A DNA stretch of 8,955 nt from a virus (Duplodnaviria > Heunggongvirae > Uroviricota > Caudoviricetes), in IMG/VR virus record IMGVR_UViG_3300029214_000257, positions 1 through 8,955 of that record. One strand, written 5' to 3'. Numbering within the stretch: position 1 is the stretch's first letter; every line of letters starts with the position of its first letter. The notes beneath the pieces were generated by a model. That model was not told the origin of the DNA. It searched no databases and saw only the letters and a program-made list of their open reading frames with translations. Positions 935 through 8,955 of this stretch are shown here, piece by piece. The position numbers were made by a program, and so were the translations under genes.

Positions 935-2620
935 GTGAATATAAACGTCGCCGAATTGTTAAATGGGAATTACATTCTGTTATTATTTGTGGTCCTCGCG
1001 CTTGGGCTATGTCTCGGAAAGTTACGACTTGGTTCGATCCAACTGGGTAATTCCATTGGCGTTTTAGTCGTATCGCTGTTATTAGGCCAACAACATTTCA
1101 GCATTAACACCGATGCGCTTAATCTTGGCTTTATGCTGTTTATTTTCTGCGTCGGGGTCGAAGCCGGACCGAACTTTTTTTCCATTTTTTTTCGCGATGG
1201 GAAAAATTACCTAATGTTAGCACTGGTGATGGTTGGCAGTGCGCTGGTGATCGCCTTAGGGTTAGGTAAGCTGTTTGGCTGGGATATTGGCCTGACGGCC
1301 GGTATGTTAGCAGGCTCTATGACGTCGACACCGGTTCTGGTCGGTGCTGGCGATACACTGCGTCATTCCGGCATGGAAAGCAGGCAGCTCTCACTGGCAC
1401 TGGATAATCTGAGCCTCGGGTATGCCTTAACCTATTTAATCGGTCTGGTGAGTTTGATTGTTGGTGCGCGTTACTTGCCGAAATTGCAGCATCAGGACTT
1501 ACAGACCAGCGCCCAGCAAATCGCCCGCGAACGTGGCCTGGACACTGATGCCAACCGTAAGGTTTATTTACCGGTGATCCGCGCCTATCGCGTCGGCCCG
1601 GAACTGGTGGCCTGGACCGACGGCAAAAATCTGCGTGAACTGGGTATTTATCGACAAACCGGCTGCTACATTGAACGTATTCGACGTAACGGGATTCTGG
1701 CAAATCCAGACGGTGATGCCGTGCTACAAATGGGCGATGAAATAGCGTTGGTAGGCTATCCCGACGCCCATGCCCGACTCGATCCCAGCTTCCGTAACGG
1801 TAAAGAAGTTTTCGATCGTGACCTTCTCGACATGCGTATCGTCACTGAAGAAGTGGTCGTTAAAAACCATAACGCTGTAGGTAAACGTCTCGCACAACTG
1901 AAGTTGACCGATCACGGTTGCTTCCTTAACCGCGTCATTCGTAGCCAGATTGAGATGCCGATAGATGACAACGTCGTGCTTAACAAAGGTGACGTTTTAC
2001 AAGTCAGCGGTGATGCCCGTCGCGTAAAAACCATCGCCGATCGCATCGGCTTTATCTCGATTCACAGCCAGGTCACTGACCTGCTGGCATTTTGCGCCTT
2101 CTTTGTTATTGGGCTGATGATCGGGATGATCACCTTCCAGTTCAGCACATTCAGTTTCGGCATGGGGAACGCTGCCGGGTTGTTATTCGCCGGAATTATG
2201 CTGGGCTTTATGCGTGCTAACCACCCGACCTTCGGTTACATTCCGCAAGGTGCATTAAGCATGGTGAAAGAGTTCGGCTTGATGGTGTTTATGGCAGGCG
2301 TTGGTCTGAGCGCCGGTAGCGGTATTAATAACGGCCTGGGCGCGATTGGCGGTCAGATGTTGATTGCCGGATTAATTGTCAGTCTTGTGCCCGTGGTTAT
2401 CTGTTTCTTGTTCGGTGCTTATGTATTGCGAATGAACCGCGCACTGTTGTTCGGCGCAATGATGGGCGCACGCACCTGCGCGCCGGCAATGGAGATCATC
2501 AGTGATACAGCTCGCAGTAACATCCCTGCGCTGGGCTACGCGGGCACCTACGCAATCGCCAACGTCCTGCTGACGCTGGCAGGGACAATCATCGTCATGG
2601 TATGGCCAGGATTAGGATAA
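935..2620 (+). CDS. ybjL: putative AAE-family transporter YbjL (two transporter halves flanking two RCK/TrkA-C-like domains)
   Basis: 561-aa ORF with GTG start at 935. Hydrophobic N- and C-terminal halves with a soluble central region (about residues 190-370). Length and synteny fit E. coli ybjL. Confidence 0.9.
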
Positions 2621-2732
2621 AACTGAAGTTGCCCTGAAAATGAAATTTTTTTGCACAACCGCAGAACTTTTCCGCAGGGCATCAGTCTTAATTAGTGCCA
2701 CTGCTTTTCTTTGATGTCCCCATTTTGTGGAG

Positions 2733-2775
2733 CCCATCAACCCCGCCATTTCGGTTCAAGGTTGATGGGTTTTTT
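2733..2775 (+). terminator. rho-independent terminator downstream of ybjL
   Basis: CCCATCAACC (2733-2742) pairs with GGTTGATGGG (2760-2769), then TTTTTT (2770-2775). About 113 nt after the ybjL stop. Confidence 0.5.
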
Positions 2776-2833
2776 GTTGCCTGAAATTTATGCTATTTAA
2801 AATCATGATGTTAGAAGCACTGTTTTTTAACGA

Positions 2834-2855
2834 TGGCGACAAAATGGCGGCAGCG
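2834..2855. repeat. 22-bp direct repeat copy 1 (candidate attR core): TGGCGACAAAATGGCGGCAGCG
   Basis: Matches 8916-8937 (TGGCGACAAAGTGGCGGCAGCG) at 21 of 22 positions in the same orientation. It ends exactly at the ogr-like stop codon (2856-2858, minus strand). Confidence 0.55.
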
Positions 2856-3074
2856 TCAAAGAGAGAGCTCCACCTGTCCTGATTTCATTGGATGCGGCTG
2901 AACCGGATTTGACTCTTTTGGCGTTGCAATCGAACGAACAAAAGTTTCATGGGTAACAAAAGTATGGCTGCAGTTAATGTTCTGGCACTGGTTGTAACGT
3001 TCTTTGGTCAATGAAGATACCTGAAAACTGCTGCGAGTATGGGCGGCACTTCCACACAGTGGGCAAATCATCAT
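2856..3074 (-). CDS. ogr: Ogr/Delta-family zinc-finger late-gene transcription activator
   Basis: 72-aa product from ATG at 3074 (MMICPLCGSAAH...CQNINCSHTF...). Cys4 spacing and length match P2 Ogr (72 aa, recalled). Lies directly downstream of the D fragment as in P2. The ORF track's 83-aa version starts 11 codons upstream. Confidence 0.75.
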   Translation of the reverse strand: MMICPLCGSAAHTRSSFQVSSLTKERYNQCQNINCSHTFVTHETFVRSIATPKESNPVQPHPMKSGQVELSL

Positions 3075-3164
3075 TTTTCGAGTTCTCCCCATTTTTGCTA
3101 AATTCACAATAATGATACCGCATTATTCCATTTTGCAAACTTAAAAGTTCTCCATTGCGAAGAA

Positions 3165-3605
3165 TCATTCCATTTCGAAATCATCAATCCTCACTTCAAG
3201 CTCCAGACTGGTCGTAAAACCATTATCCGGGCTGACGGTATGAGTCAGAGTCGTAATGGTCCATTCCGCATCATCTATCGGTTGTTTAAAGCCACTAACT
3301 TTCACTGGCATTTCCGTGTAAAGATCTGCCCGCCCTTCCGCCAGTTGTAGCGAGAATGACGCAACGCCGCGTTGCAGGCGTTCCCACTGCATTTTCGCTG
3401 CCCGTTCAGCGTTGCTCCGGTTGGCATAAGTGCGATTAAGTACCAGCACGTTTTCATCCGTACCCACCAGGTAATCGCCCTGCTTCGCTTCCGGCTCTTT
3501 CTTCTGCTTCTTAGTTCTGCGCTTACGCTTCACCGTGGTGCTTTCTTTCTTCGCAGGTTCGCGGGTATGCAACCAGCTGGCAATTACGCCCGTGTAAACG
3601 CCCAA
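3165..3605 (-). pseudogene. C-terminal fragment of P2 gpD-like tail protein (D')
   Basis: Translation (GVYTGVIASWLHTRE...LQRGVASFSLQLAEGRADLY...LELEV...) resembles the C-terminal third of P2 gpD from memory. No ATG start: the frame opens with TTG at 3605 and is open up to 3626. Sits immediately upstream of ogr as in P2. Confidence 0.55.
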
Positions 3606-4062
3606 TCTGTGCCCACTGTTCGGTGGTCAACTTAGGACGGCGTCCACCTACTCTGCCTTTGGCACGAGCTGCAGCCAGCCCTGCCCTGGTACGTTCAACT
3701 ATCAGTTCGCGTTCCATTTCAGCCAGGGCACCCATGACATGAAAAAAGAAACGGCCCATTGGGGTACTGGTATCAATACTGTCAGTCAGGCTTCTGAAAT
3801 TCACACCACGCTGGCGCAACTCTTCTATCAGCGTAACAAGATGCCGCATACTGCGCCCCAACCTGTCCAGCTTCCAGACAACCAGCGTGTCTCCTGCCGA
3901 TAGTGTCCTGAGTAGTTTTTTCAGCCCCGGTCTGTCGGACTTAGTGCCACTGATTTTGTCCTCAAAAATCTGCTCACATCCCGCGCAATTCAGTGCATTA
4001 CGTTGCAAATCGGTGTTCTGGTCATTTGTTGACACGCGTACATAGCCAATAAGCATGATCAT
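3523..4062 (-). pseudogene. truncated Pin/Gin/Hin-family serine DNA invertase (catalytic domain only; C-terminal HTH lost)
   Basis: N-terminal about 156 aa (LIGYVRVSTNDQ...DTLVVWKLDRLGRS...GRFFFHVMGALAEMERE...) closely resembles e14 Pin from memory. Homology stops after ...TEQWAQIGRL near nt 3595 and the frame runs into unrelated sequence before the stop at 3523. Confidence 0.75.
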
Positions 4063-4112
4063 CCCCCTGAATAAAAACCGGAGATGATGCCAGTTAGCTG
4101 TTACCTCTGCAT

Positions 4113-4138
4113 TTTCTTAAACGTTGGTTTGGGAGAAG
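4113..4138. other. candidate gix/hix-like invertase crossover site (TTTTCTTAAACG TT GGTTTGGGAGAA)
   Basis: 26-bp imperfect inverted repeat matching recalled gix/hix sites at about 17 of 26 positions. Located about 50 bp upstream of the invertase start, the usual site-invertase arrangement. Confidence 0.3.
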
Positions 4139-4350
4139 CCAGATATCAGCGTTGAATCTTCAGTCAGATCGGTAAGCAGCCAGATTTCTGGTGCGGTTAA
4201 TAAATGAGGTTGAGCTGGGTTCAGCTTGTTCCGCAGAATCTGCACATTCATGCCAGCACGTTCTGCCAGTTGCACCAGGTTGTGGCGCAATGCGAATGCA
4301 CGACAGGCTTCATCAAAATGTGGATGTTTGGAAACTTGGTAATCAAACAT
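4117..4350 (-). pseudogene. truncated CII-like HTH regulator (186 CII-type N-terminal domain only)
   Basis: 77 aa from ATG 4350 ([45 protein letters not shown]...). Clear HTH, resembles the N-terminus of phage 186 CII from memory. Ends at about 77 aa versus about 169 expected. SD AGAGG 9 nt upstream. Lies downstream of the apl-like gene as in 186. Confidence 0.5.
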
Positions 4351-4382
4351 GGTCAATGCCTCTGATGTATTTCAGAATCGAA

Positions 4383-4604
4383 CTAATTAAGGTTTAGATT
4401 GCATTCTGAAAGCGCATCAACGGTCATGGCTGCTATGTTGATCATCACTTTTTCGCGTTTTTTATCTTTCCGCAGACGGTGACGGATAAGACGTCCATCA
4501 GCCAACATGTCATTGATAGTATCGATGGATAGCCCTGTCAGCTCGCTATAACGTTCAATAGTCACATGAGGCGTGGTAAGAGTGATTGAAATGTTATGTT
4601 TCAT
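4383..4604 (-). CDS. Apl/Cox-like excisionase / lytic-operon first gene (small HTH protein)
   Basis: 73-aa ORF with an AlpA/excisionase-like HTH ([23 protein letters not shown]). Divergent from cI and first gene of the apl-cII-type operon. Confidence 0.5.
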
Positions 4605-4729
4605 GATGCAACATTCCTCGTTTAATGTTGATTAATCAGGACGAATACGGATCGTTTGTATTTTGTGAACATCATAAACATACGATCGCATAATGAAATC
4701 GTCAAGACAAAAGTTCACTTGGAGTGACC
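4605..4729. promoter_or_regulatory. lysis/lysogeny switch region between divergent apl-like and cI-like genes
   Basis: 125-bp AT-rich intergenic region. Minus-strand candidate promoter: -35 TTGACG (4705-4700), 17-bp spacer, -10 TATGTT (4682-4677). GTGAAC (4666-4671) and GTTCAC (4713-4718) form an inverted pair. Palindrome CGATCG at 4683-4688. Confidence 0.4.
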
Positions 4730-5299
4730 ATGAATTTGGAGAAAGGCGGACGAGGCGCTATAGAGCGCATGGTAGAAGCATATGGCTTCAAGACTCGACA
4801 GGCGTTGTGCGATCACTTAGGAATCTCTAAAAGTACTCTCGCCACACGCTATATGCGTGACTCATTCCCTGCTGAATGGGTAATCCAGTGCGCACTTGAA
4901 ACGGGCGCCTCGCTTAACTGGCTCACGACCGGACATGGTTCAAAGCAAACTTCAGGTAATACAAATACTATGGAAGTCGTTAAATATGTATTATCTGATG
5001 GAACCTTGCAGGAAGATGGTTTTTATATTTTCGATAAAGAATTTCTACCATCTACGCTCAAAAATCCGTTTGTAATCACCGATAACAATTCCGTTTTTAT
5101 TTGCGATAAAGAGTTTAACGATATTCGTGACGGCAAATGGGTAATAAGTATTGATGCCGAAGTAACAATCCGCGATATCACTCGTTTACCTGGTGGAAGA
5201 ATCTTAGTTGAAGGTGGAAATAGGGCTTTCGAATGTAAAAAAGAAGAAATCGAAATTATTGGAAAAATTATAACCATAACAGTTAAGTACTTTGAGTAA
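4730..5299 (+). CDS. cI: 186-type CI immunity repressor (N-terminal HTH domain plus C-terminal oligomerisation domain)
   Basis: 189 aa from ATG 4730, with GGAG SD 5 nt upstream (the ORF track starts at an in-frame GTG at 4724). The N-terminal domain (GGRGAIERMVEAYGFKTRQALCDHLGISKSTLATRYMRDSFPAEWVIQCALETGASLNWL) looks like the 186 CI DNA-binding domain. Length matches 186 CI (about 192 aa). Confidence 0.8.
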   Translation: MNLEKGGRGAIERMVEAYGFKTRQALCDHLGISKSTLATRYMRDSFPAEWVIQCALETGASLNWLTTGHGSKQTSGNTNTMEVVKYVLSDGTLQEDGFYIFDKEFLPSTLKNPFVITDNNSVFICDKEFNDIRDGKWVISIDAEVTIRDITRLPGGRILVEGGNRAFECKKEEIEIIGKIITITVKYFE

Positions 5300-5349: not shown

Positions 5350-6273
5350 ATGTCAACTCAAAAATTAAAATTTAGCCATATCAAAAACGATCTGAAAGCA
5401 ATAGTCATGCAGAATCGTGGAGGGCAAAAAGTTATTGAGCGTATACTCCTAGCCTATGGCTTCAAGTCACGACAGGCATTATGTAATCATCTAGGTATTT
5501 CCCAAAGTACTATGGCCAACAGATATGCACGTAATACCTTTCCTGCAGATTGGGTTGTTATATGTTCCATAGAAACAGGAGCATCAATTGAATGGTTAGT
5601 TCTTGGTTCAGATACTGCTCCTTCATCAGAGCAATATTCTGAAAAACATGCCGTTAATGGCCTTTGCAATGAAGTATACATTCCCACTATAAAGTTCGAT
5701 AATGAAAAACTCATGAATTTTAACCGAGGAGGTAAGGCAACAATAGAACGAATTGTCGAGGCTTACGGTTACAAAACGCGCCAAGCATTAGCTGATCACC
5801 TAGGTATTTCAAAAAGCACATTAGCCACACGATACATGCGTGACATTTTTCCTGCAGACTGGGTTTTGCAGTGTGCAATAGAAACGGGCCATTCTATTGA
5901 ATGGATTTCATTTGGTACAGGAGAAATGAAAAACGCAAAAAATAAAGATACTTTAACATTAGTGAAAAAAGTATTAATCAATGGCAAGTTAATAAATGAT
6001 GGCTCATATTTATTTGACCCATGTTTTCTACCTTCCAATTTAAAAAATGCATTCGTAGTATCTACCGAAGGCTCTGAATTAATATGTGAAATGGGTTTTA
6101 AAGATGTACATGATGGTAAGTGGCTAGTAAATATTGATGGAGAGAATTCATTTAGAATGATAACTCGACTACCTAAAGGACGAGTTTATATTTCATCCAA
6201 AAATCACTCTTTTGAATGTTCGCTTACAGACATTGAGTTTATTGCAAAAGTTATTATAAGTTGTTTACATTAA
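5350..6273 (+). CDS. CI-repressor paralogue with tandemly duplicated N-terminal HTH domain plus CI-like C-terminal domain
   Basis: 307-aa ORF. Residues about 24-86 and 127-189 are two copies of the CI N-terminal domain (copy 2 is about 75% identical to the adjacent cI N-terminal domain). Residues about 200-307 parallel the cI C-terminal domain (VVKYVLSDGTL...DGKW in cI versus LVKKVLINGKL...DGKW here). Alternative start at M20 (5407). Confidence 0.75.
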   Translation: MSTQKLKFSHIKNDLKAIVMQNRGGQKVIERILLAYGFKSRQALCNHLGISQSTMANRYARNTFPADWVVICSIETGASIEWLVLGSDTAPSSEQYSEKHAVNGLCNEVYIPTIKFDNEKLMNFNRGGKATIERIVEAYGYKTRQALADHLGISKSTLATRYMRDIFPADWVLQCAIETGHSIEWISFGTGEMKNAKNKDTLTLVKKVLINGKLINDGSYLFDPCFLPSNLKNAFVVSTEGSELICEMGFKDVHDGKWLVNIDGENSFRMITRLPKGRVYISSKNHSFECSLTDIEFIAKVIISCLH

Positions 6274-6298
6274 GTAAATTTTTCATGGAGACTTCATA

Positions 6299-7816
6299 GT
6301 GAAATGTGGTGATTGTAATTGGAACTGGGATGAAGAAACTACCTTTATATTAGACGACGAAGAGGAAATTCTCTCCAAAGACAAACTTAATCGGAGACAC
6401 TATGCAGAATATCTATATTTTTATCTTAAGGAAAAGGGGCAAAAGAACAATACGGTAATCAACCTTAATGCAGAATGGGGAGCTGGTAAAAGTTTTTTCA
6501 TAAAGAGATTTTATAACTCAATAAAAGATGCACACCCATGCGTTTACATTGATGCCTGGAAGCAAGACTTTTCTGATGATGCATTTTTAACCCTTTTTTC
6601 TTCTTTGTCACAACAATTGCAAACATATGCAGGAAAACTTGATGCTCGATTGATACAAAGCGGCCATGCTATCGGACGCTTTACAAAAGGTGTTCTACCT
6701 GAAATCATATCTGGCCTAATCAAGACTTATGCAGGAGTAGATAACGTAGGTGATATAGCCAAAGAAGCCTCATTAATAATGCTGAAGGAACACCAGGAAA
6801 AACTGAAGAGCATTAAGGTATTAAAAAAAGAACTTACGTTATGGTCTAGGTTGGCATATGAAAATAGTTTTTCATGTCCTATATTTATCTTTATAGATGA
6901 ATTAGACAGATGCAGGCCAGATTATGCAATTTCTCTTTTAGAGATTGTTAAACATATATTCGATATTAAAAATTTTGTCTTTATTATTGCTACTGACACA
7001 GATCAATTACAACATTCAATCAAGAATGTTTACGGTAATGATTTTTCCGCAAATGACTATTTAGGCCGTTTTTTTCATAGAAGATTTACTTTAAAACAAC
7101 CTGAACTTAAAGATTTAATTAATGGTGTTGTTGGTGATTATATTGGTACCGAGTTTGAAAATATCACATCAAAAACATACCCACTAACCGCAACATTAGA
7201 AGACTTTTCAATAAATATTTCCAACGTATTTGAAGCATTTGGGTTAAATCTAAGAGACTCAATCCGAAATACTGAAAGGTTAATAGACATTCTTAAATCT
7301 GATTTAGTCAAAAAGAAAGTAGATTATATTTTTATAATTTCGCTAATGATTATATATGATAAGGATCGTCAAATTATAGATGGACTAATTGGTCGAAGAA
7401 ATGCAGCACAACGTTTCACTGATTCGATAAAGCAAAGCTCCAATTTAAAAGGTGTTTCTCAAGCCATCCTTGAATTAAATCTTGATACAAATCAGCAAAG
7501 AATAGGTGTCAATTATATCTATACAACGGCGAACAGTAGATTATTCATCTCACAGATCGAACCCAAAATAAGTTTAACATTAATAAATTACTTAGATGTT
7601 GCATTGTATTTTATCAATAATATAAACATACTTAAATCAAGTATAAAAAACAATGGGCAAAATTCACTAATGATTAAATCTAAACAAGGCCCTATTGATG
7701 GTGATACAGCTATAAAGTATTTGCAAGGAGCCCTTATAGAGAATGGACTGAATACATCTTTTTATGCCTTACATAATTACATTGAATTAATTGAACTGGC
7801 CACATCATTTGATTAA
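6299..7816 (+). CDS. KAP-family P-loop NTPase (PifA-like)
   Basis: 505-aa ORF with GTG start at 6299 and GGAG 9 nt upstream. Walker A EWGAGKS (G61-S65, nt 6479-6493). KAP-type Walker B IFIDELDRC (D200-C205, nt 6896-6913). Very AT-rich coding sequence. Starts 25 bp after the 307-aa ORF, so probably co-transcribed. Confidence 0.85.
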   Translation: MKCGDCNWNWDEETTFILDDEEEILSKDKLNRRHYAEYLYFYLKEKGQKNNTVINLNAEWGAGKSFFIKRFYNSIKDAHPCVYIDAWKQDFSDDAFLTLFSSLSQQLQTYAGKLDARLIQSGHAIGRFTKGVLPEIISGLIKTYAGVDNVGDIAKEASLIMLKEHQEKLKSIKVLKKELTLWSRLAYENSFSCPIFIFIDELDRCRPDYAISLLEIVKHIFDIKNFVFIIATDTDQLQHSIKNVYGNDFSANDYLGRFFHRRFTLKQPELKDLINGVVGDYIGTEFENITSKTYPLTATLEDFSINISNVFEAFGLNLRDSIRNTERLIDILKSDLVKKKVDYIFIISLMIIYDKDRQIIDGLIGRRNAAQRFTDSIKQSSNLKGVSQAILELNLDTNQQRIGVNYIYTTANSRLFISQIEPKISLTLINYLDVALYFINNINILKSSIKNNGQNSLMIKSKQGPIDGDTAIKYLQGALIENGLNTSFYALHNYIELIELATSFD

Positions 7817-7902: not shown

Positions 7903-8955
7903 ATGGCAGTACGAAAACTCACCACAGGAAAATGGCTTTGCGAATGTTACCCCGCCGGACGTAGTGGGCGTCGGGTGCGTAAACAATTCGCCACCAAAGG
8001 CGAAGCTCTGGCTTTTGAGCGCCACACGATGGAAGAAACCGAAGCAAAGCCCTGGCTGGGTGAATCAGTGGATCGTCGAACACTGAAAGACGTGGTTGAG
8101 CTATGGTTCAAACTACATGGTAAATCTCTGACAGCTGGGCAGCATGTCTATGACAAATTGCTGTTGATGGTTGACGCTCTGGGCAATCCTCTTGCAACCG
8201 ATCTCACCTCTAAAATGTTTGCCCACTATCGAGATAAACGCCTGACAGGCGAGATCTACTTCAGCGAGAAATGGAAGAAAGGAGCAAGCCCGGTCACCAT
8301 TAACCTGGAGCAAAGCTATCTAAGTAGTGTTTTTAGCGAACTATCCCGTCTGGGCGAATGGTCGTATCCGAACCCACTGGAGAACATGCGAAAATTCACC
8401 ATCGCAGAAAAAGAGATGGCATGGCTTACCCATGAGCAGATTGTTGAATTGCTGGCTGATTGCAAACGTCAGGACCCAATTCTGGCACTGGTAGTTAAGA
8501 TATGCTTAAGCACAGGCGCACGCTGGCGTGAAGCCGTAAATCTTACCCGCTCACAGGTGACCAAATACCGAATTACCTTTGTCAGAACGAAGGGGAAGAA
8601 AAACAGAAGCATCCCTATAAGTAAAGAGCTTTACGAAGAGATCATGGCGCTTGATGGGTTCAATTTCTTTACAGACTGCTATTTTCAATTTTTATCCGTG
8701 ATGGAAAAAACGTCTATCGTGCTCCCTCGCGGTCAACTCACACACGTTCTGCGCCATACGTTTGCGGCGCACTTCATGATGTCGGGTGGAAACATTCTGG
8801 CCTTACAAAAAATTCTCGGACACCACGATATAAAAATGACTATGCGTTACGCACATCTGGCACCGGATCATCTGGAAACGGCGCTCCGTTTCAATCCTCT
8901 GGCAACGCTGCCAAGTGGCGACAAAGTGGCGGCAGCGGTTGGCATTACCCCGTAA
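7903..8955 (+). CDS. int: P2-type tyrosine integrase
   Basis: 350 aa, alignable by eye with P2 Int (recalled): ICLSTGARWREA (Arg box), TFVRTKGKKNRSIPIS, HVLRHTFAAHFMMSGGNILALQKILGH, MRYAHL (catalytic Tyr). The 3' end overlaps the second 22-bp repeat. Confidence 0.9.
   Translation: MAVRKLTTGKWLCECYPAGRSGRRVRKQFATKGEALAFERHTMEETEAKPWLGESVDRRTLKDVVELWFKLHGKSLTAGQHVYDKLLLMVDALGNPLATDLTSKMFAHYRDKRLTGEIYFSEKWKKGASPVTINLEQSYLSSVFSELSRLGEWSYPNPLENMRKFTIAEKEMAWLTHEQIVELLADCKRQDPILALVVKICLSTGARWREAVNLTRSQVTKYRITFVRTKGKKNRSIPISKELYEEIMALDGFNFFTDCYFQFLSVMEKTSIVLPRGQLTHVLRHTFAAHFMMSGGNILALQKILGHHDIKMTMRYAHLAPDHLETALRFNPLATLPSGDKVAAAVGITP
8916..8937. repeat. 22-bp direct repeat copy 2 (candidate attL core): TGGCGACAAAGTGGCGGCAGCG
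   Basis: 21 of 22 identical to 2834-2855. Lies inside the last 14 codons of int, so the final 6 int codons (8938-8955) fall outside the repeat-bounded element. Confidence 0.55.

What the first reader, a model, noticed from the sequence alone, without database searches (positions are those of the whole stretch)
2834..2855. Imperfect 22-bp direct repeat flanking the element, consistent with attR/attL cores
TGGCGACAAA[A/G]TGGCGGCAGCG occurs at 2834-2855 and 8916-8937 in the same orientation, with different flanking bases on both sides. One copy abuts the ogr stop and the other overlaps the int 3' end, which is where a P2-like prophage would place its att cores. A chance 21 of 22 match in 9 kb is very unlikely.
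Basis: seen in the sequence. Interest (0 to 1): 0.55.

Follow-up and report, generated by a model that had tools for sequence, protein, structure and literature searches.

The report
Integrase arm-binding sites, not att cores
The 22-base repeat is real, but it is the pair of integrase "arm" binding sites that a P2/186-like phage carries on either side of its attachment-site core, a well-known and ordinary feature; the true crossover core lies about 70 bases further left, and its partner lies outside the window.

Summary
TGGCGACAAA[A/G]TGGCGGCAGCG occurs at 2834-2855 and 8916-8937, and no 22-mer pair with at most one mismatch appeared in 1000 shuffles. Prophage-free E. coli lack the 22-mer, and host homology ends at about 2791, 43 bp left of it. 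The real core is ATGGGTTTTTTGTTGCCTGAAATTTAT (2765-2791), the 3' half of the ybjL terminator. Its attR partner starts 75 bp beyond the int stop, outside the window.

Both 22-mers lie inside phage DNA. In non-integrated relatives (KP12, an IMG/VR contig, ESSI2_ev040) they flank the attP core at fixed distances of 114 and 69 bp. Each 22-mer is two 11-bp-phased TGGCGRCA units. These match the published arm-site consensus for 186-type integrases (tgccGCCActt; YAYCGCCAYTY in the 186 record). The window's Int carries the three N-terminal residues proposed to discriminate the 186 type. P2 and a P2-type prophage in UTI89 have their own motif (TGTCCAC/T) in the same two places: the last codons of int, and beside ogr.

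The repeat is therefore the pair of Int arm-type sites of a decayed 186-type prophage. Already known; low interest.

The parts
2831..2855 (+). ogr-side Int arm-type site pair ('P arm' in P2 nomenclature): cgaTGGCGACA + aaaTGGCGGCA, two units in 11-bp phase.
   Evidence: It lies inside phage DNA, 69 bp from the core start, in KP12, L073 and ev040. It matches the 186 arm consensus.
8913..8937 (+). int-side Int arm-type site pair ('P' arm' in P2 nomenclature): AAGTGGCGACA + AAGTGGCGGCA, embedded in the last codons of int (encodes ..SGDKVAAA..).
   Evidence: Positions 8924-8934 are the exact reverse complement of the published 186-type consensus tgccGCCActt. It lies 114 bp upstream of the core start in L003, KP12 and ev040. 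It is invariant in 77 of 80 IMG/VR loci.
2765..2791 (+). True attL core (27 bp, ATGGGTTTTTTGTTGCCTGAAATTTAT). Strand exchange is inferred within 2765-2778 (ATGGGTTTTTTGTT). The attR copy is outside the window and would start at about 9030.
   Evidence: Comparison of the empty site, attR, attP of free phages and the K-12-type attB allele. KP12 homology starts at 2765.
2729..2778 (+). Terminator-like hairpin of ybjL plus its U-run. Its descending half and U-run form the left part of the att core.
   Evidence: RNA fold of -23.3 kcal/mol, z = -3.35. The sequence is present in empty sites.
2801..2813 (+). IHF-like site AATCATGATGTTA (12 of 13 to WATCAANNNNTTR) between the core and the ogr-side arm. 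Consensus match only.
   Evidence: P2 has its IHF site in the same position.
2856..3074 (-). ogr/Delta-type late-gene activator gene. Its stop codon abuts the arm site.
   Evidence: Pfam Ogr_Delta, E = 5e-22. RefSeq annotation of identical DNA.
7903..8955 (+). Tyrosine integrase, 350 aa, 186-type N-terminal arm-binding region (W11, E14, Y16). The window ends at its stop codon.
   Evidence: Pfam Int_N and Phage_integrase. Alignment with 186 Int (56% identity) and P2 Int (35%). N-termini.
4383..4604 (-). Putative Cox/Apl-type excisionase and switch regulator (73 aa), first gene of the lytic operon, facing cI.
   Evidence: 63% identical to the protein annotated Cox in ESSI2_ev040. Weak local similarity to 186 Apl. 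No Pfam hit. Role inferred from position.

Best explanation
The two 22-mers are the arm-type binding sites of the prophage's own tyrosine integrase. In the circular phage the attP site reads: int 3' end with two TGGCGRCA units, then about 90 bp with two IHF-like sites, then the core, then 42 bp with one IHF-like site, then two more TGGCGRCA units, then the ogr stop. The N-terminal domain of Int binds the arm units while its core-binding and catalytic domains hold the core, folding attP into an intasome. Strand exchange with attB happens inside ATGGGTTTTTTGTT, the tail of the ybjL terminator. Integration splits attP, so one arm pair ends up just inside attL (next to ogr) and the other just inside attR (in the end of int). 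That is why the pairs appear as a direct repeat bracketing nearly the whole prophage.

Shown here: the position of the repeats relative to the true junctions, their conservation and fixed spacing in free phages, their match to the published consensus, and their co-variation with the Int N-terminal type. Inferred: physical binding by Int, the IHF sites, the exact overlap region, and the role of the 73-aa Cox/Apl-like protein.
For: (1) The junctions are at 2765-2791 and about 75-101 bp past the int stop, so both 22-mers are phage DNA. The empty site has no 22-mer.

(2) Intact attP in Klebsiella phage KP12 and IMG/VR contig L073 shows 22-mer, 114 bp, core, 69 bp, 22-mer, ogr.

(3) ESSI2_ev040 has an int only 75% identical in DNA and unrelated P-arm flanks with no ogr nearby. 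It keeps both 22-mers (21-22 of 22) at the same 114 and 69 bp distances.

(4) SW9, EtG and 186 have different cores but carry 11-bp-phased TGGCGRYA units on both sides.

(5) The 186 RefSeq record annotates these as 'predicted Int arm-type recognition sequences; consensus YAYCGCCAYTY'. [quoted passage not shown] Window 8924-8934 is its exact reverse complement.

(6) The window's Int has W11/E14/Y16, the residues that paper proposes to discriminate 186-type from P2-type (Y/D/R) arm recognition.

(7) P2 itself has its P' arm inside the int 3' end and its P arm next to ogr, with its own motif TGTCCACA. The P2-type prophage of UTI89 has TGTCCAT repeats in the same two places.

(8) In the poorly conserved Int C-terminal tail the 22-mer stands out. 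Against ev040 it is 21/22 identical versus 94/128 for the surrounding 3' sequence. Against SW9 it is 19/22 versus 74/128.
Against: No binding or recombination experiment exists for this phage. Even in 186 the arm sites are annotated as 'predicted'. The int-side copy is also coding sequence, so part of its conservation could be protein constraint, although the ogr-side copy is non-coding and equally conserved. Direct repeats at 11-bp spacing are also the signature of Cox/Apl excisionase sites.
Confidence: 0.88

Rival explanations
1. The 22-mers are the attL/attR cores, the site of strand exchange duplicated by integration.
For: A direct repeat near both ends of a P2-like element, far beyond chance.
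Against: The 22-mer is absent from empty ybjL-rcdA sites. Host homology ends at 2791 and phage homology starts at 2765. The right junction lies beyond the int stop. In free phage genomes both copies coexist on one molecule on either side of another sequence, and that sequence is the one shared with attB.
Confidence: 0.02
2. The repeats bind a different phage protein, such as the Cox/Apl-type excisionase or the CI repressor, rather than Int.
For: Excisionase operators in 186 and P2 are also direct repeats about one helical turn apart and lie in attP.
Against: In 186 and P2 the Apl/Cox sites sit on one side of the core only, as 5 or more units with a different sequence. The TGGCG motif is shared by phages whose Cox/Apl proteins are barely related, since the window protein shows only a 20-residue weak match to 186 Apl. 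The motif instead tracks the Int N-terminal type. The motif does not occur in the window's cI/apl switch region.
Confidence: 0.06
3. The left copy is a relic of a duplicated or recombined int 3' end (for example from a former tandem prophage), or a chance match, with no function.
For: The prophage in the window is heavily rearranged, with two internal deletions.
Against: Similarity stops sharply at the 22 bp. The same ogr-side copy is present in intact, non-integrated phages and in about 1100 E. coli genomes with this prophage end. 0 of 1000 shuffles gave such a pair.
Confidence: 0.02

Closest known systems
Arm-type Int recognition sequences of coliphage 186 attP (consensus YAYCGCCAYTY; 186-type consensus tgccGCCActt in Nilsson et al. 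2011, PMC3448106)
   Same: Same motif on the same strand relative to int (186: TGGCGATAGAATGGCGGTGG on the B/ogr side; ATGGCGATAAAGTGGCGGTAGAAATGGCG on the int side). Same 11-bp phasing, with pairs on both sides of the core. The Int is 56% identical and has the same N-terminal W/E/Y residues.
   Different: Different core and target: 186 uses the 3' end of a tRNA-Ile gene, whereas this phage uses the ybjL terminator next to rcdA. 186 has an extra ORF (orf69) between int and attP, so its arm sites are intergenic and its Int lacks the C-terminal tail. 186 has 3 units on the int side plus an inverted unit on the B side; here there are 2 + 2.
Bacteriophage P2 attP: P arm, IHF site, core, Cox sites, P' arm
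   Same: Same architecture. One pair of 11-bp-phased direct repeats overlaps the last codons of int, and one pair lies just past ogr. An IHF site lies between the ogr-side arm and the core. Arm-to-core distances are similar: about 106 and 63 bp in P2, 114 and 69 bp here.
   Different: The P2 arm motif is TGTCCACA (tgTGGaCa on the other strand) and P2 Int has Y/D/R at the discriminating N-terminal positions. P2 has a C/Cox switch rather than a CI/Apl-type switch. The core and chromosomal site differ.
Lambda attP arm-type sites P1, P2, P'1-P'3 (the general model of heterobivalent tyrosine integrases; from established knowledge)
   Same: An integrase with a separate N-terminal domain binds arm sites that are unrelated in sequence to the core and absent from attB. 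The arms end up divided between attL and attR.
   Different: Unrelated motif, number and spacing. Lambda arm sites do not overlap the int coding sequence.

Membership tests
Arm-type sites of a heterobivalent tyrosine integrase (P2/186-like attP) | They lie in phage DNA on both sides of the attP core and are absent from attB. | tested here: met
   Free-phage attP in KP12, L073 and ev040. Empty site without the 22-mer. Junction mapping.
Arm-type sites of a heterobivalent tyrosine integrase (P2/186-like attP) | At least two direct repeats per arm, about one helical turn apart, with a sequence unrelated to the core. | tested here: met
   Each arm is TGGCGACA-N3-TGGCGGCA in 11-bp phase. The core ATGGGTTTTTTGTT... 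has no TGGCG.
Arm-type sites of a heterobivalent tyrosine integrase (P2/186-like attP) | Match to the family's published arm consensus (186-type tgccGCCActt / YAYCGCCAYTY). | tested here: met
   8924-8934 is the exact reverse complement of tgccGCCActt. The other three units match at 8-10 of 11 positions.
Arm-type sites of a heterobivalent tyrosine integrase (P2/186-like attP) | The cognate Int has an N-terminal arm-binding domain of the matching type, and the motif co-varies with that domain across phages. | tested here: met
   W11/E14/Y16 in the window, ev040, SW9, EtG and 186, all with TGGCG arms. Y/D/R in P2 and UTI89 PhiECO5, with TGTCCA arms. The discriminating residues are a proposal of PMC3448106, not proven contacts.
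Arm-type sites of a heterobivalent tyrosine integrase (P2/186-like attP) | Conserved position relative to the core despite divergent spacer sequence. | tested here: met
   114 bp and 69 bp in L003/window, KP12 and ev040.
Arm-type sites of a heterobivalent tyrosine integrase (P2/186-like attP) | Physically bound by Int and required for integrative and excisive recombination. | not testable with these tools
   Needs EMSA or footprinting and recombination assays with mutated arms.
att core (site of strand exchange) | Present as a single copy in the unoccupied chromosomal site (attB). | tested here: not met
   0 matches with up to 3 mismatches in the empty ybjL-rcdA region. The sequence of the empty site was read directly.
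att core (site of strand exchange) | Coincides with the boundary between host and element DNA at both ends. | tested here: not met
   The left boundary is at 2765-2791, 43 bp before the 22-mer. The right boundary is at least 93 bp after the other copy and outside the window.

The most novel reading that the evidence does not exclude
The 6.3-kb remnant may not be random decay. It has lost all virion genes but keeps exactly what a mobile islet needs: an intact int, a Cox/Apl-like gene, CI, and the attL core with both arm-site pairs (relatives show an intact attR core just outside the window). It also carries a cargo pair inserted between cI and int, a double-HTH CI-like protein and a KAP-family NTPase. 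It could therefore persist as an excision-competent islet, possibly with a defence function, whose arm sites are still under selection.
Probability: 0.12. Interest if true: 0.4.

Novelty: already known. Interest (0 to 1): 0.12.

Why it matters
Mainly as a correction. A flanking direct repeat at the ends of a P2-like prophage is not necessarily the att core. Using it would misplace the prophage boundaries by 43 bp at one end and at least 93 bp at the other, and would wrongly predict the sequence of the empty site. The analysis gives the real attB for this widespread E. coli prophage family, which is the tail of the ybjL terminator, immediately before the rcdA stop codon. It places strand exchange within a 14-bp block. 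It also adds a clear example of arm-site motif tracking the integrase N-terminal type. None of this changes current understanding of P2/186 site-specific recombination.

Tried and rejected
(1) The IMG/VR scan with Int returned 80 near-identical loci, most cut exactly at the int stop. It gave no diversity, but the few longer ones supplied an intact attP (L073), attR variants and two odd junctions.

(2) The consensus terminator scan found nothing at 2600-3100 because the hairpin loop exceeds its limit. Folding showed the hairpin.

(3) The supplement of PMC3448106 (Fig. S4, arm repeats per phage) is not held.

(4) I checked whether the UTI89 prophage PhiECO5 listed in that paper is at this site. 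It is at serS-dmsA, so I used it as a P2-type control instead.

(5) Literature searches for the ybjL/rcdA (ybjK) site found only the Phollow preprint. That work deletes an active P2-like prophage of E. coli HS between rcdA and a point 77 bp downstream of ogr. In window coordinates that point is 2779, just after the 14-bp exchange block.

(6) There is no tRNA in the window, so this is not a tRNA-targeting att.

(7) I looked for the arm motif or the TTATTGTTTT repeat in the cI/apl switch region (4590-4740) to assign excisionase sites. There was no convincing match, so excisionase sites remain unassigned.

(8) An inverted repeat AACCCGTTTA/TAAATGGGTT just left of the core in attP might have been core-type sites around an overlap. 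I rejected this because attB shares no sequence there. It is more likely the int terminator hairpin.

Full report
**1. The observation**

TGGCGACAAAATGGCGGCAGCG is at 2834-2855 and TGGCGACAAAGTGGCGGCAGCG is at 8916-8937, on the same strand, with unrelated bases on both sides. It is the only 22-nt direct pair with at most one mismatch in the window. No such pair arose in 1000 dinucleotide-preserving shuffles, and about 2e-4 pairs are expected analytically.

The left copy ends one base before the ogr stop codon (ogr = 2856-3074, minus strand). The right copy sits inside int (7903-8955), 15 nt before its stop codon. Each 22-mer is itself two units, TGGCGACA and TGGCGGCA, whose starts are 11 bp apart. 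That phased pattern occurs exactly only at these two places.

**2. What the window is**

The window is E. coli grxA-ybjM-ybjL followed by a P2-family (Peduoviridae) prophage of the 186 regulatory type. The prophage is a remnant. It contains ogr, the C-terminal part of gene D (3165-3605), a tail-fibre-type serine invertase (3523-4062), a truncated cII (4117-4356) and a 73-aa Cox/Apl-like gene (4383-4604). It continues with cI (4724-5299), a 307-aa CI-like protein, a 505-aa KAP-family NTPase, and an intact int.

Alignment with a full-length prophage at the same site (L001) shows two internal deletions. The window stops exactly at the int stop codon, so the right end of the prophage is not in it.

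**3. Where the prophage really begins and ends**

About 4200 of 5426 complete E. coli genomes have an uninterrupted ybjL-rcdA junction, and about 1100 have this prophage end.

- In an empty site (strain 120) the sequence runs ...GGTTGATGGGTTTTTTGTTGCCTGAAATTTAT|CTACTACCC..., where CTA is the rcdA stop codon on the other strand.
- The window is identical up to ...AAATTTAT (2791) and then diverges. This is 43 bp before the 22-mer.
- The empty region contains no copy of the 22-mer even with 3 mismatches allowed.
- In genomes that share the window's right half (AF44, and ECO8855 at 99.98% identity), the sequence past the int stop runs 74 bp to ...CATAA ATGGGTTTTTTGTTATCTAAAACTTAT CTACTACCC (rcdA).

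The repeat that integration actually duplicated is therefore the 27-bp core ATGGGTTTTTTGTT-NNCTNAAANTTAT. It lies at 2765-2791 in the window. Its partner would start at about 9030.

BLAST against the free phage KP12 starts phage homology exactly at 2765. The core is the descending half and U-run of the ybjL terminator hairpin (-23.3 kcal/mol, z = -3.35).

**4. Where strand exchange occurs**

Empty sites come in two alleles to the right of ATGGGTTTTTTGTT. The K-12 type is ATCTAAAACTTAT, with many 100% full-length matches. The other type is GCCTGAAATTTAT. Free phages carry GCCTGAAATTTAT or GTCTGAAATTTAT.

In AF44 and ECO8855, attR has the K-12 allele followed by host DNA. The window's attL, and that of AF44, has the phage allele followed by phage DNA. 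So exchange must have happened to the left of that segment, within ATGGGTTTTTTGTT (2765-2778). This is an inference from the junctions.

It agrees with the Phollow preprint. That work rebuilt a functional attB for an active P2-like phage of E. coli HS using arms that start at rcdA and at 77 bp downstream of ogr. In window coordinates the second point is 2779.

**5. What the 22-mers are**

[quoted passage not shown] This is seen directly.

In Klebsiella phage KP12 and in IMG/VR contig L073 the order is:

1. int 3' end containing TGGCGACAAAGTGGCGGCAGCG
2. int stop
3. 74 bp
4. core
5. 42 bp
6. TGGCGACAAATTGGCGGCAGAG
7. ogr stop

Escherichia phage ESSI2_ev040 has an int only 75% identical at the DNA level, and the DNA beyond its core is unrelated, with no ogr there. 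It keeps both 22-mers (22/22 and 21/22 against the window's left copy). Their distances from the core start are the same, 114 bp and 69 bp.

Salmonella phage SW9, Erwinia phage EtG and coliphage 186 have other cores, but again carry 11-bp-phased TGGCGRYA units on both sides.

The RefSeq record of 186 annotates exactly these as 'predicted Int arm-type recognition sequences; consensus = YAYCGCCAYTY'. Nilsson et al. [quoted passage not shown] They give the consensus tgTGGaCa for P2-type and tgccGCCActt for 186-type integrases. Window 8924-8934 (AAGTGGCGGCA) is the exact reverse complement of the latter.

**6. The integrase matches the motif**

The window's Int is 56% identical to 186 Int and 35% identical to P2 Int. 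At the three N-terminal positions that PMC3448106 proposes as discriminators of arm specificity, it has W11, E14 and Y16. So do 186, EtG, SW9 and ev040. P2 has Y, D and R.

As a control, P2 has two TGTCCACA units in the last codons of int (annotated 'Int P' arm', 24470-24496, inside the int CDS). It has two more beside ogr ('P arm'), with an IHF site between that arm and the core. The P2-type prophage of UTI89 (Int with Y/D/R) has TGTCCAT repeats in the same two positions and no TGGCG.

So 'one pair in the end of int, one pair next to ogr' is the standard P2-family layout, and the motif follows the Int N-terminal type.

The Int C-terminal tail that overlaps the arm site is dispensable in 186, whose Int ends before it. 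Its sequence differs between types as the DNA motif dictates: GDKVAAA here, VHTVST in P2. Within that otherwise poorly conserved 3' region the 22-mer is the conserved island. Against ev040 it is 21/22 identical versus 94/128 outside; against SW9 it is 19/22 versus 74/128.

**7. Mechanism**

This is the standard mechanism for heterobivalent tyrosine integrases.

- **Shown here:** the layout, the conservation and the co-variation.
- **Inferred:** Int N-terminal domains bind the four TGGCGRCA units while the C-terminal domains bind the core.
- **Inferred:** IHF bends the arms. Near-consensus (12/13) IHF sites are at 2801-2813 and, beyond the window, in the two TTATTGTTT repeats between the int stop and the core.
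- **Inferred:** exchange occurs in ATGGGTTTTTTGTT.
- **Inferred:** for excision, the 73-aa Cox/Apl-like protein would act on the int-side arm, as Apl and Cox do in 186 and P2. I could not assign its sites.

**8. Rival explanations**

- **Another protein's sites:** unlikely. Apl/Cox sites lie on one side of the core only, as five or more units of a different sequence. The excisionases of these phages are barely related, while the motif and the Int N-terminus are shared.
- **Chance or a duplication relic:** excluded by the shuffles and by the presence of both copies in intact free phages.

**9. Novelty**

The feature is a textbook component of P2/186-type attP, with a published consensus. This particular attP (ybjL terminator / rcdA) does not seem to have been dissected in the papers I could search, but nothing about it departs from the known pattern. 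Interest is low. The value lies in correcting the boundaries and the assignment.

Noticed in passing
window 5350-7816: Between cI and int lie a 307-aa protein with two Phage_CI_repr HTH domains plus a CI C-terminal domain, and a 505-aa KAP-family P-loop NTPase. In relatives the same cI-int slot holds other cargo: a 'chromosome segregation ATPase' in KP12 and 813R9, DUF4041, and DUF2511 in SW9. In ev040 and 186 it is empty. It looks like a variable cargo slot, possibly for anti-phage defence genes.
   Followed up: no
window 2779-2791 and the empty sites in L002 / one search hits: The E. coli attB is dimorphic. The 13 bp after ATGGGTTTTTTGTT are ATCTAAAACTTAT (K-12 type) or GCCTGAAATTTAT. The second form is identical to the phage attP (L073). 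Either the phage copied one host allele, or that allele is phage-derived. Allele frequencies were not counted.
   Followed up: partly
window 3165-4356: The prophage is a patchwork remnant. The gene D 3' fragment is joined near 3588-3596 to a tail-fibre-type serine invertase gene (3523-4062). That gene is joined near 4136-4144 to a truncated cII. No complete genome in the collection has exactly this arrangement. The best has 93% coverage, and other strains show different deletion variants.
   Followed up: partly
L039 3630-3640 and L083 3630-3640 (IMG/VR): In two viral contigs the int-side arm and spacer are joined to unrelated DNA immediately after ...CATAAATGG. The L039 flank weakly resembles the core (ATGGTTATTTTTTTAGCCGGAAATTCAT). 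These could be secondary integration sites or the equivalent site in another species. The position is consistent with exchange at the left end of the core.
   Followed up: no
just beyond the window end (L012 6385-6412; L005 2606-2640): In attP and attR the sequence AACCCGTTTACATAAATGGGTTTTTT forms a hairpin plus U-run downstream of int. Its descending half is the att core. The phage int terminator and the host ybjL terminator therefore share their 3' half, and both stay intact after integration. Seen by eye; not folded.
   Followed up: no
window 8955 (end): The window ends exactly at the int stop codon, as do most IMG/VR prophage calls for this family. attR and the 74-bp int-side spacer are systematically cut off in such records.
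   Followed up: yes
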